64,000 bases of DNA from Candidatus Multivorans sp. (GTDB taxonomy: Bacteria; Acidobacteriota; Thermoanaerobaculia; Multivoradales; Multivoraceae). The stretch is taken from the NCBI GenBank assembly GCA_965220845.1, contig CBDCRA010000005.1:896016-960015 (forward strand), given 5' to 3'. The translations under genes were made by a program, and so were the position numbers. Below the pieces are notes generated by a model, which worked only from the letters and a program-made list of their open reading frames with translations, did no database searches and was not told the DNA's origin. Positions 10,806 to 10,982 of the stretch are shown one piece after another; the first letter of the stretch is position 1, and every line of letters starts with the position of its first letter.

Positions 10806-10982
10806 TCAGAAGATGAGGCTCAGGCAGGAACGGGCGAGCAGGGCGCCCATGCCCGGATAGAGGGCGTCGATGAAGGGCGCTGCCGCCCAGCAAGCCACCG
10901 AGACCATCCAGGCGTTTCCGCCGGTGACGGCCGCGAGATCGGCCTCGGGCAGGATCGCGATCATGGTTGAAGCGGTATTCAT
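10806..10982 (-). CDS. bacteriocin/RiPP-like precursor peptide B (58 aa) with a double-glycine leader
   Basis: MNTASTMIAILPEADLAAVTGG|NAWMVSVACWAAAPFIDALYPGMGALLARSCLSLIF. The leader matches the double-glycine consensus (L..EL..(I/V).GG). The 36-aa hydrophobic core has 2 Cys. Lies directly downstream of the C39 peptidase gene. Confidence 0.65.
   Translation of the reverse strand: MNTASTMIAILPEADLAAVTGGNAWMVSVACWAAAPFIDALYPGMGALLARSCLSLIF

What the first reader, a model, noticed from the sequence alone, without database searches (positions are those of the whole stretch)
10806..10982. 58-aa peptide with a canonical double-glycine leader and a 36-aa hydrophobic two-Cys core
MNTASTMIAILPEADLAAVTGG|NAWMVSVACWAAAPFIDALYPGMGALLARSCLSLIF. 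The 22-aa leader fits the L..EL..(I/V).GG class II bacteriocin/RiPP leader consensus. The gene lies immediately downstream of the C39 peptidase gene. The core has two Cys, giving disulfide or thioether potential, and a very hydrophobic C-terminus.
Basis: seen in the sequence. Interest (0 to 1): 0.85.

Follow-up and report, generated by a model that had tools for sequence, protein, structure and literature searches.

The report
Double-glycine bacteriocin-like peptide, exported-protease locus
The 58-residue peptide is a real, conserved and unannotated gene with a textbook double-glycine leader. It sits in a sponge-associated Acidobacteriota operon whose leader-cutting protease and disulfide enzyme appear to work outside the cytoplasm. 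That makes it an unusual variant of a common kind of bacterial toxin-peptide system.

Summary
The ORF is real.

- **Conservation.** I found 19 variants in Thermoanaerobaculia ('Candidatus Multivorans') genomes. All lie next to a stand-alone C39 peptidase. The start Met, the GG and both Cys are conserved. The leader is under purifying selection (pN/pS 0.45) and the core evolves fast (about 1.06).
- **Leader.** It fits the canonical rule: V-4, L-7, L-12, I-15, then GG.
A 75-aa Pro-rich gene lies between the C39 gene and the peptide. There is no peptidase-containing ABC transporter. The C39 has an N-terminal membrane anchor, follows an anchored CxxC redoxin, and elsewhere is fused to one, so both are probably periplasmic.
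- **Neighbouring precursors.** They carry a Sec signal peptide, then a GG/GA leader, then a 2-4-Cys hydrophobic core. The 58-aa family is a Sec-signal-less relative of such precursors.
- **Downstream genes.** Two large paralogous membrane proteins, an ABC ATPase and two Yip1/YknW proteins, probably for export or immunity.

Best reading: an unmodified, disulfide-stapled, microcin-like peptide matured outside the cytoplasm. How this Sec-less member crosses the membrane is unresolved. I rate it a new variant of a known kind, of moderate-to-high interest.

The parts
10806..10982 (-). 58-aa precursor gene including the stop codon. Leader is residues 1-22 (10917-10982), with predicted cleavage after G21-G22. 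The 36-aa core (10809-10916) carries Cys31 and Cys53.
   Evidence: Translation. 19 homologous variants with conserved Met, GG and two Cys. GC3 0.83. Leader pN/pS 0.45 against core 1.06. AF2 helices at 4-20, 24-41 and 46-57, pLDDT 66.
11236..11838 (-). Stand-alone C39 (double-glycine) cysteine peptidase of 200 aa, with an N-terminal Arg-rich segment and a single hydrophobic anchor.
   Evidence: Pfam PF03412 E 1e-30. Q58, C64, H138 and D153 are invariant in 21 homologs. Closest solved structures are LahT150 6MPZ, PCAT1 and ComA. It is the only C39 in the window. Anchor flanks hold 94 K/R on the N side and 49 on the C side.
11828..12331 (-). Membrane-anchored TlpA/redoxin-like thiol-disulfide oxidoreductase of 167 aa with a CGNC motif. 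It overlaps the C39 start by 11 nt.
   Evidence: Pfam Redoxin E 3.9e-6. CxxC is present in 48 of the 50 loci with a redoxin hit. The TM-redoxin-C39 fusion P0096 exists.
10993..11220 (-). 75-aa Sec-signal, Pro-rich, 2-Cys protein of unknown role. Its stop codon lies 10 nt upstream of the peptide's ATG.
   Evidence: Translation. Conserved at this position in related loci.
10414..10728 (-). 104-aa precursor: Sec signal, spacer, canonical GG leader (L-12, E-8, M-7, L-4, GG), then a Gly-rich 4-Cys hydrophobic core.
   Evidence: Translations. Called as a gene in L001 and L003. Homologs in L021, L027, L028, L036 and L039.
10039..10335 (-). 98-aa precursor: Sec signal, spacer, GA-type leader (LSDQAAEAIQGA), then a 2-Cys hydrophobic core.
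   Evidence: Translation. Called as a gene in L002, L003 and L005. Homologs found.
8298..9956 (-). 552-aa polytopic membrane protein (TM552), a candidate permease or immunity component. It co-occurs with the 104-aa and 98-aa peptides as a cassette.
   Evidence: No Pfam or NCBIfam hit. 29% identical to TM529. Co-occurrence in 8/8 loci against 1 of the other loci with a TM5xx hit. All-helical but low-confidence model.
6471..8060 (-). 529-aa paralogous polytopic membrane protein (TM529). The window's allele is highly diverged.
   Evidence: dN 0.62 against L002, L004 and L005, while the flanking genes have dS of about 0.1.
5630..6418 (-). ABC transporter ATP-binding protein, DrrA / ABC-2 type.
   Evidence: Pfam ABC_tran E 1.6e-30 and NCBIfam drrA E 3.5e-63, below that model's cutoff. 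Syntenic in most loci.
4854..5633 (-). Yip1-domain membrane protein (259 aa) resembling YknW.
   Evidence: Pfam Yip1 E 1.5e-10. NCBIfam YknW_fam E 5.4e-19, 68.6 bits against a curated cutoff of 110, so below cutoff.
4110..4808 (-). Second Yip1-domain membrane protein (232 aa).
   Evidence: Pfam Yip1 E 5.8e-15.

Best explanation
The ORF encodes the precursor of an unmodified, microcin-like (class II bacteriocin-like) membrane-active peptide.

**Shown**
- It is a conserved gene with a canonical 22-residue double-glycine leader and a fast-evolving 36-residue hydrophobic, anionic-to-neutral core with two invariant Cys.
- It lies in one tight minus-strand operon with a catalytically intact stand-alone C39 peptidase, a CxxC redoxin, two further GG/GA-leader precursors, two large paralogous membrane proteins, an ABC ATPase and two Yip1/YknW-like proteins.

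**Inferred**
- The C39 and the redoxin face the periplasm. Each has an N-in signal anchor. A relative has them fused behind a single anchor. Their other substrates carry Sec signal peptides.
- The C39 cuts after Gly21-Gly22.
- The redoxin forms or maintains a Cys31-Cys53 disulfide that staples a helix-turn-helix hairpin.
- The ABC/permease/Yip1 genes expel the peptide or protect the producer.

**Open step**
This family has lost the Sec signal that its slot-mates in sister lineages carry. Its leader must therefore reach the periplasmic face some other way. Candidates are the operon's ABC system, or YidC-type or spontaneous insertion of the acidic N-tail (as for Pf3 coat protein, from general knowledge).

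Antibacterial activity is inferred only from analogy and from the pattern of hypervariable cores and swapped cassettes.
For: - **Sequence and frame:**
- **Conservation:** 19 variants, always beside the C39. Met, GG, both Cys and a P-G-x-G turn are conserved.
- **Start site:** a stop codon lies 4 codons upstream of the Met in L016 and L021. Shine-Dalgarno-like motifs lie 8-14 nt upstream in most variants. In L087 the ATG overlaps the C39 stop codon.
- **Selection:** leader pN/pS 0.45, core 1.06. C39 and redoxin dN/dS are 0.1-0.25.
- **Leader rule:** positions -4, -7, -12 and GG match the published rule (PMC10885120). The pattern is rare in the window.
- **C39:** catalytic Q/C/H/D invariant. Closest solved structures are true GG proteases.
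- **Extracytoplasmic location:** anchor charge bias of 94 against 49 K/R. The TM-redoxin-C39 fusion P0096. Anchored CxxC redoxin conserved. Neighbouring precursors carry Sec signal plus GG leader, in this lineage and in other phyla.
- **Homology to Sec-bearing slot-mates:** BLASTP E 2e-4; hhalign E 2.6e-4 over 45 columns.
- **Precedents for periplasmic C39:** FapD is experimentally shown to act in the periplasm (PMC5557850). NapP is proposed to do so in a model (PMC11798529).
- **Structure:** AF2 gives a leader helix plus a two-helix core.
- **Synteny:** the operon is conserved in about 40 loci, and peptide and permease genes move as a cassette.
Against: - There is no experimental evidence of expression, cleavage, disulfide formation or toxicity.
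- The peptide matched no curated bacteriocin or leader model in Pfam or NCBIfam at E<=0.1.
- It lacks a Sec signal while the protease is predicted to be outside the cytoplasm, so its access to the protease is unexplained.
- The window's own copy lacks the Shine-Dalgarno motif seen in most relatives.
- A core pN/pS of about 1 is also what relaxed constraint would give.
- No outer-membrane release component was identified.
- The topology of C39 and redoxin rests on sequence rules and on a fusion protein, not on a dedicated predictor or an experiment.
- The two large membrane proteins have no recognisable family, and their model was unusable.
Confidence: 0.6

Rival explanations
1. It is a membrane-resident small protein that works inside the producer, not a secreted toxin. 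For example it could be an immunity or accessory factor, or a subunit that tunes the C39/transporter machinery. It would insert from the cytoplasmic side because it has no Sec signal, with or without leader removal.
For: It lacks a Sec signal, unlike every other precursor in these loci. It is very hydrophobic, with two short helices and almost no K/R. Immunity proteins of class II bacteriocins and microcins are typically small membrane proteins encoded beside the toxin (PMC12219008). It is retained in loci whose other peptides are swapped.
Against: The canonical cleavage motif and leader spacing are conserved and under purifying selection. The family is homologous to Sec-exported, GG/GA-leader precursors in the same slot. 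The conserved-leader, hypervariable-core pattern is that of a processed product, not of an immunity protein.
Confidence: 0.15
2. It is a decaying remnant: a formerly Sec-exported precursor that lost its signal peptide, is no longer exported, and is drifting.
For: It is homologous to longer Sec-bearing precursors in the same slot. Core pN/pS is about 1, and close pairs reach 0.7-1.7. The window copy has no Shine-Dalgarno motif.
Against: There is no frameshift or premature stop in 19 variants at pS 0.25-0.31. GG, both Cys and the P-G-x-G turn are invariant, and leader pN/pS is 0.45. Shine-Dalgarno motifs lie in front of the new ATG in most variants. A still shorter 48-aa form is translationally coupled to the C39 gene in L087.
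Confidence: 0.12
3. It is a secreted signalling (pheromone) peptide with a GG leader, like ComC/CSP or plantaricin A, rather than a toxin.
For: GG leaders also serve signalling peptides (PMC7595303, listed; general knowledge).
Against: No histidine kinase or response regulator was found in the operon. The core is a long hydrophobic, anionic 2-Cys hairpin rather than a short amphipathic cationic pheromone. Multiple paralogous precursors and ABC/Yip1 genes fit toxin-immunity better.
Confidence: 0.05
4. It is a chance ORF in GC-rich DNA, with no gene there.
For: High-GC DNA carries many long spurious ORFs, and an antisense ORF (10713-10970, +) is also open here and in L002.
Against: GC3 is 0.83 against 0.57 at codon positions 1 and 2. 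Start, motif and Cys are conserved across 19 variants. Shine-Dalgarno motifs are present. The position next to the only C39 in 64 kb is fixed. The pattern is rare in the window.
Confidence: 0.03

Closest known systems
Class II microcins of Gram-negative bacteria (e.g. MccV, MccL, MccN)
   Same: [quoted passage not shown] The core is hydrophobic, anionic to neutral and carries a disulfide. No modifying enzymes are present. Membrane-protein genes that could confer immunity lie alongside (definition from PMC12219008; features).
   Different: Microcins are cut and exported in one step by a peptidase-containing ABC transporter with a membrane fusion protein and TolC. Here there is no PCAT or MFP. 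The C39 is a separate, anchored and probably periplasmic protein paired with a redoxin. The ABC genes are of the DrrA/ABC-2 type with novel 530-550-aa membrane partners.
Periplasmic stand-alone C39 systems: FapD of the Pseudomonas Fap amyloid operon, and NapP of the Neisseria nap island
   Same: A C39 peptidase without a transporter that acts, or is proposed to act, in the periplasm on GG-containing products of the same locus (PMC5557850; PMC11798529). NCBIfam gives weak, below-cutoff similarity to FapD and FilB.
   Different: No FapF-like outer-membrane channel or amyloid subunit was found in this operon. The substrates here are obvious short precursors with canonical leaders, most of them behind Sec signals, and a dedicated redoxin is present. 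The FapD substrate is still undefined, and Nap peptides are cationic.
Gram-positive class II (IIb / IId) double-glycine-leader bacteriocins and their PCATs (LahT, ComA, PCAT1)
   Same: The leader rule (-4, -7, -12, -15 hydrophobic, then GG). Several precursor genes share one protease. Sibling cores are Gly/Ala-rich. The protease domain is closest in sequence to LahT150, PCAT1 and ComA.
   Different: The host is a diderm. The protease is detached from the transporter. Cores are anionic rather than cationic. Sec plus GG dual leaders occur on the sibling precursors.
B. subtilis YknWXYZ and LanFEG-type ABC self-protection systems
   Same: A Yip1 (YknW-like) membrane protein together with an ABC ATPase lies next to toxic-peptide genes. 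Their role as protection against SdpC or lantibiotics is from general knowledge.
   Different: The Yip1 hit is below the NCBIfam cutoff. No YknX/MFP or FtsX-type permease is present. The membrane partners are unclassified 12-helix-like proteins.

Membership tests
Double-glycine (GG) leader peptides | N-terminal leader of about 15-30 residues ending in GG, GA or GS | tested here: met
   The leader is 22 residues and ends in G21-G22. GG is invariant in 19 variants.
Double-glycine (GG) leader peptides | Hydrophobic residues at -4, -7 and -12 (and -15) that form the protease-binding face | tested here: met
   V-4, L-7, L-12 and I-15 are present. The rule is taken from PMC10885120. The leader is predicted helical at residues 4-20. 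The pattern is rare in the window.
Double-glycine (GG) leader peptides | A cognate C39 peptidase with intact Gln/Cys/His/Asp encoded nearby | tested here: met
   PF03412 E 1e-30, 253 nt upstream. Q58, C64, H138 and D153 are invariant.
Double-glycine (GG) leader peptides | Match to a curated leader or bacteriocin model (e.g. TIGR01847, or the Pfam bacteriocin class II families) | tested here: not met
   No Pfam or NCBIfam family matched at E<=0.1. Such short models are insensitive, so this weakens the case but does not exclude membership.
Double-glycine (GG) leader peptides | Actual cleavage after GG | not testable with these tools
   Needs an in vitro protease assay or mass spectrometry.
Class II microcins | Size <10 kDa, GG signal sequence, Gram-negative producer | tested here: met
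   58 aa with a GG leader. The host is Acidobacteriota, class Thermoanaerobaculia. That this phylum is diderm is general knowledge, not tested here.
Class II microcins | Export and cleavage by a dedicated PCAT plus a membrane fusion protein (type I secretion) | tested here: not met
   The only C39 in 64 kb is a 200-aa stand-alone protein. No PCAT or MFP is in the operon. A PCAT elsewhere in the genome was not searched for.
Class II microcins | Antibacterial activity with a cognate immunity protein | not testable with these tools
   There are only indirect signs: hypervariable cores, peptide/permease cassettes, and ABC plus Yip1 genes.
Nif11 / NHLP-leader RiPP precursors | Long (>70 aa) Nif11- or nitrile-hydratase-like leader matching TIGR03798 or TIGR03793, plus modifying enzymes | tested here: not met
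   The leader is 22 aa with no NCBIfam hit. No modifying enzymes are in the operon.
Lactococcin 972 family | Sec-dependent precursor matching the Pfam lactococcin 972 family, with no GG processing | tested here: not met
   No Pfam hit and no Sec signal; a GG leader is present.
Periplasmic stand-alone C39 systems (FapD / NapP type) | C39 peptidase with its own signal peptide or anchor and no transporter domain | tested here: met
   200 aa with an Arg-rich N-terminus and one hydrophobic segment, giving a 94:49 K/R bias. A fusion to an anchored redoxin exists. No localisation predictor or experiment was available.
Periplasmic stand-alone C39 systems (FapD / NapP type) | FapF-like outer-membrane channel in the locus | tested here: not met
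   None of the operon proteins scanned gave any outer-membrane-channel hit. The 371-aa downstream protein is a soluble-looking exported protein.
Periplasmic stand-alone C39 systems (FapD / NapP type) | Equivalog-level similarity to FapD | tested here: not met
   NF058616 scored 44.5 bits against a cutoff of 330.

The most novel reading that the evidence does not exclude
The locus could represent an undescribed, phylum-spanning maturation pathway for bacteriocin-like peptides. In it, precursors carry a Sec signal followed by a double-glycine leader, and are processed and oxidised outside the cytoplasm by an anchored C39 peptidase and a partner redoxin.

The 58-aa family would then show that the double-glycine leader plus the hydrophobic core can reach that periplasmic machinery without Sec, through the operon's unclassified ABC/Yip1 membrane proteins or by self- or YidC-mediated insertion.

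This would give periplasmic C39 peptidases, whose substrates are still undefined for FapD, their first clear substrate set.
Probability: 0.3. Interest if true: 0.8.

Novelty: new variant of a known kind. Interest (0 to 1): 0.6.

Why it matters
Double-glycine leader peptides are common, so the peptide alone is a new, unannotated family of a known kind.

The context is what matters. The protease that reads the leader is detached from any transporter. It is anchored so as to face the periplasm, and it is paired with (elsewhere fused to) a thiol-disulfide oxidoreductase. Its other substrates carry a Sec signal in front of the GG leader. The same arrangement appears next to stand-alone C39 genes in Ignavibacteria, Bacteroidota, Poribacteria and other Acidobacteriota.

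If confirmed, this would define a second route for maturing GG-leader peptides in diderm bacteria. It would also supply clear substrates for periplasmic C39 enzymes, whose targets are still undefined for FapD. And it would point to a hypervariable toxin/immunity locus in uncultured sponge and coral symbionts.

The Sec-less 58-aa member is a natural test of what the leader itself contributes to membrane passage.

Tried and rejected
- **Family scans.** Pfam and NCBIfam scans of the 58-aa, 75-aa, 98-aa and 104-aa proteins gave no meaningful hits.
- **PDB.** A profile search with the peptide returned only a chance TALE-repeat hit at E 0.74.
- **Representative library.** The profile search of 1.84 billion representatives added three true relatives (P0122, P0123, and the 48-aa P0126) plus two repeat proteins of 1040-1086 aa. 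The repeat proteins match only through reiterated 'LPEADRLAAVT'-like repeats, and I rejected them as spurious.
- **TM552 structure.** AlphaFold2 on a 16-sequence alignment gave pLDDT 47.6, too poor for a fold search, so none was run.
- **Signals and RNAs.** The promoter/terminator scan found nothing above the shuffled expectation. There were no tRNA or Rfam hits in the window.
- **Outer-membrane channel.** I checked the 371-aa downstream protein as a possible channel. It has no family and no OMP-like features.
- **Literature.** Searches for Sec plus double-glycine leaders, stand-alone or periplasmic C39 with thioredoxin, Acidobacteria or sponge bacteriocins, and 'Candidatus Multivorans' found no description of this system. 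They turned up only the FapD and NapP precedents.
- **Upstream extension.** I considered an in-frame upstream extension (the TTG ORF 10806-11201) that might supply a signal peptide. I rejected it because it overlaps the Pro-rich gene in another frame, and stop codons lie 4 codons upstream of the Met in L016 and L021.
- **Thioether/RiPP chemistry.** Rejected for lack of any modifying enzyme in the operon.

Full report
**1. The observation**

The + strand of 10806-10982 has no open frame. The reverse complement encodes exactly the quoted 58-residue peptide plus a stop codon, so the gene is on the minus strand.

- The region is 64-70% GC. The ORF has GC 0.58/0.56/0.83 at codon positions 1/2/3, the signature of a real coding frame.
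- The leader MNTASTMIAILPEADLAAVTGG places V, L, L and I at -4, -7, -12 and -15 before GG. This is the recognition rule for C39 double-glycine proteases (PMC10885120).
- A strict form of the pattern is found in only 2 distinct ORFs among 277 ATG-start ORFs of 40-120 aa in the window. The other is an unrelated chance hit.
- One detail in the finding is inexact. A 75-aa ORF (10993-11220, minus) lies between the C39 gene and the peptide gene. It has a Sec signal and is Pro-rich, with two Cys.

**2. Is it a gene?**

A word-indexed protein search found four clusters of 55-58 aa at 73-93% identity. Public gene callers had called the ORF on every contig I fetched.

An HMM of these sequences, run on six-frame translations of 86 loci fetched around homologs of the C39, found 18 distinct variants. 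Each lies 350-550 nt downstream of the C39 gene. A profile search of 1.84 billion representatives added a 48-aa relative, MNILLETDLATVTGG|AGAAAFSACWTLVTILEAIFPAFGVLLELCFAL. Its ATG overlaps the C39 stop codon in locus L087.

- The Met start, the GG, both Cys and a P-G-x-G turn are conserved throughout. In L016 and L021 a stop codon lies four codons upstream of the Met.
- Most variants have AAGGAGG-, AAGGAG- or AAGGAA-like motifs 8-14 nt upstream. The window's copy does not, but it starts 10 nt after the stop of the preceding gene.
- Summed pairwise Nei-Gojobori estimates give pN/pS 0.45 for the leader and 1.06 for the core. The neighbouring C39 and redoxin genes give 0.1-0.25.

A conserved leader with a fast-changing core that keeps its structural residues is the usual signature of a processed peptide product.

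**3. Organism**

Record titles of the best-matching genomes name Acidobacteriota, class Thermoanaerobaculia, 'Candidatus Multivorans'. All are metagenome-assembled genomes. I take many of them to come from sponge or coral samples. That reading rests on my recognition of the isolate names, not on a tool result.

**4. The surroundings**

On the minus strand the genes form a tight operon:

| Gene | Coordinates | Note |
|---|---|---|
| Redoxin | 11828-12331 | CGNC motif, N-terminal anchor, overlaps the next gene by 11 nt |
| Stand-alone C39 | 11236-11838 | |
| Pro-rich protein | 10993-11220 | |
| The 58-aa peptide | 10806-10982 | |
| 104-aa precursor | 10414-10728 | |
| 98-aa precursor | 10039-10335 | |
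| TM552 | 8298-9956 | |
| TM529 | 6471-8060 | |
| DrrA-type ABC ATPase | 5630-6418 | |
| Two Yip1-domain proteins | 4854-5633, 4110-4808 | The first resembles YknW, below cutoff |

- The C39 matches PF03412 at E 1e-30. It keeps the invariant Gln, Cys, His and Asp. It is closest to LahT150, PCAT1 and ComA among solved structures.
- It is the only C39 in the 64 kb, and no peptidase-containing ABC transporter or membrane fusion protein is present.
- The synteny redoxin, C39, peptides, TM5xx, ABC, Yip1 holds in about 40 Thermoanaerobaculia loci.

**5. Where the protease works**

All 21 aligned C39 homologs begin with an Arg-rich stretch followed by one hydrophobic segment. K/R counts are 94 in the N-flank against 49 in the C-flank. 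This predicts N-in, with the domain outside.

The redoxin has the same kind of anchor and a conserved CxxC. One relative, P0096, is a single protein made of TM, redoxin (CPYC) and C39 with no intervening membrane segment.

The neighbouring precursors carry classical Sec signal peptides, then a spacer, then a canonical GG/GA leader:
- 104-aa: ...LATTEMAVLGGG|APDW...
- 98-aa: ...LSDQAAEAIQGA|LAWKW...

Each is followed by a hydrophobic core with one Cys near each end. A census of 43 loci shows this 'Sec + GG' architecture for essentially all C39-adjacent peptides in the lineage except the 58-aa family. My automatic classifier was crude, so the sequences were read by eye.

The same architecture sits next to stand-alone C39 genes in Ignavibacterium, Bacteroidota, Chitinophagaceae, Poribacteria and other Acidobacteriota.

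I conclude, by inference, that the C39 and the redoxin act on the periplasmic side. There are precedents. FapD is an experimentally active periplasmic C39 whose substrate is still unknown (PMC5557850). NapP of Neisseria is proposed to cleave GG peptides in the periplasm (PMC11798529).

**6. The odd one out**

The 58-aa family has no Sec signal. In sister lineages (L029, L030, L033, L037, L040, L041) the same slot after the Pro-rich gene holds 101-112-aa precursors. These have a Sec signal and the segment ...VVLP.ATLDAVTGA|INWGK..CW...C....

These align with the 58-aa family from the leader through both Cys. BLASTP gives E 2e-4. hhalign gives E 2.6e-4 over 45 columns at 44% identity. The 58-aa form therefore looks like a derivative that lost about 45 N-terminal residues and gained a new start.

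It has nonetheless been kept intact, with a constrained leader, across the clade. L087 holds a 48-aa version (section 2).

How it reaches a periplasmic protease is open. The leader is acidic (0 to -2) and the core is nearly free of K/R. That would allow N-tail translocation of the Pf3-coat/YidC kind (general knowledge). Alternatively the operon's ABC system may move it.

AlphaFold2 on a shallow alignment (pLDDT 66) predicts a leader helix at 4-20 and a core of two helices at 24-41 and 46-57, joined at YPGM. This would bring Cys31 and Cys53 onto facing helices. That is an inference, as coordinates were not inspected.

**7. Toxin-like signs**

- The peptide region is a hot spot. Between loci whose C39 and redoxin differ by dS of about 0.1, whole peptide genes are replaced.
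- The window's TM529 differs from that of L002, L004 and L005 by dN 0.62.
- The 104-aa and 98-aa peptides co-occur with the extra paralog TM552 in 8 of 8 loci. Only one locus without them (L042) has two TM5xx genes.
- TM552 and TM529 are 29% identical and have no known family.
- The mature cores are anionic or neutral and hydrophobic, like class II microcins rather than cationic Gram-positive bacteriocins (the comparison is general knowledge).
- No modifying enzymes are present, so a disulfide is the only likely modification.

**8. Comparison with known systems and verdict**

The peptide meets the sequence definition of a double-glycine leader peptide and works most like a class IIa microcin. 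It fails the microcin membership test on the export machinery, because there is no PCAT or MFP. It also matches no curated model.

The protease resembles FapD and NapP in being stand-alone and exported. However, the locus lacks a FapF-like channel, and similarity to FapD is far below the family cutoff.

No paper in the searched library describes Sec plus GG dual leaders, this operon type, or bacteriocins of this lineage. No source names the proteins.

I rate the finding a new variant of a known kind. The main added value is the extracytoplasmic C39/redoxin context and the membrane-crossing puzzle it creates for this particular peptide.

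Noticed in passing
window 10993-11220 (-): A 75-aa Sec-signal, Pro-rich protein with two Cys lies between the C39 gene and the peptide. Longer versions (104-139 aa, motif ELAVY.PCGC.P.P.CPFP.PWP) follow the C39 gene in nearly all related loci. It has no family and no known function.
   Followed up: partly
window 10414-10728 (-) and 10039-10335 (-): Two further precursors carry a Sec signal peptide followed by a canonical GG or GA leader and a hydrophobic Cys-containing core. I could not find this dual-leader architecture described in the literature searched.
   Followed up: partly
window 8298-9956 (-) with 10039-10728 (-); loci L001-L003, L021, L027, L028, L036, L039: The 104-aa and 98-aa peptides and the extra membrane-protein paralog TM552 travel together. 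All 8 loci with the peptides have both TM552 and TM529. Only one locus without them (L042) has two TM5xx genes. This looks like a peptide/permease (toxin/immunity?) cassette.
   Followed up: partly
window 6471-8060 (-): The window's TM529 is a strongly diverged allele compared with L002, L004 and L005: dN 0.62, dS about 1, same length and same termini. The flanking C39 and redoxin differ by dS of only about 0.1. This suggests allelic replacement by recombination.
   Followed up: no
P0096 and P0090 (homologs of window 11236-11838): P0096 is a single protein made of TM anchor, redoxin (CPYC) and C39. In P0090 the C39 ORF runs on into a Sec-signal plus GG-leader plus Cys-rich peptide sequence, which may be a fusion or an annotation read-through.
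   Followed up: no
L053, L054, L060-L063, L066, L067, L069: Stand-alone C39 genes in Ignavibacterium, Bacteroidota, Chitinophagaceae, Poribacteria and other Acidobacteriota are followed by small ORFs with a Sec signal, a GG leader and a Cys-rich hydrophobic core. Several of these loci also carry ABC ATPase and Yip1 genes.
   Followed up: partly
L087 8001-8147: A 48-aa Sec-less relative with a 15-residue leader lies directly after the C39 gene, and its ATG overlaps the C39 stop codon. Here the Pro-rich gene comes after the peptide rather than before it.
   Followed up: partly
window 10983-11010 (-): The window's copy of the peptide gene lacks the Shine-Dalgarno-like motif that most variants have 8-14 nt upstream. 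L005, 93% identical in protein, has GGAG where the window has GCGG.
   Followed up: no
window 12775-16725 (-): A large SNF2-family helicase lies directly upstream of the operon and is syntenic in related contigs. It is probably unrelated to the peptide system.
   Followed up: no
window 2698-3813 (-): A 371-aa protein with an N-terminal signal-like segment has no Pfam or PDB relative. It is conserved downstream of the Yip1 genes in many related loci, and its link to the system is unknown.
   Followed up: partly
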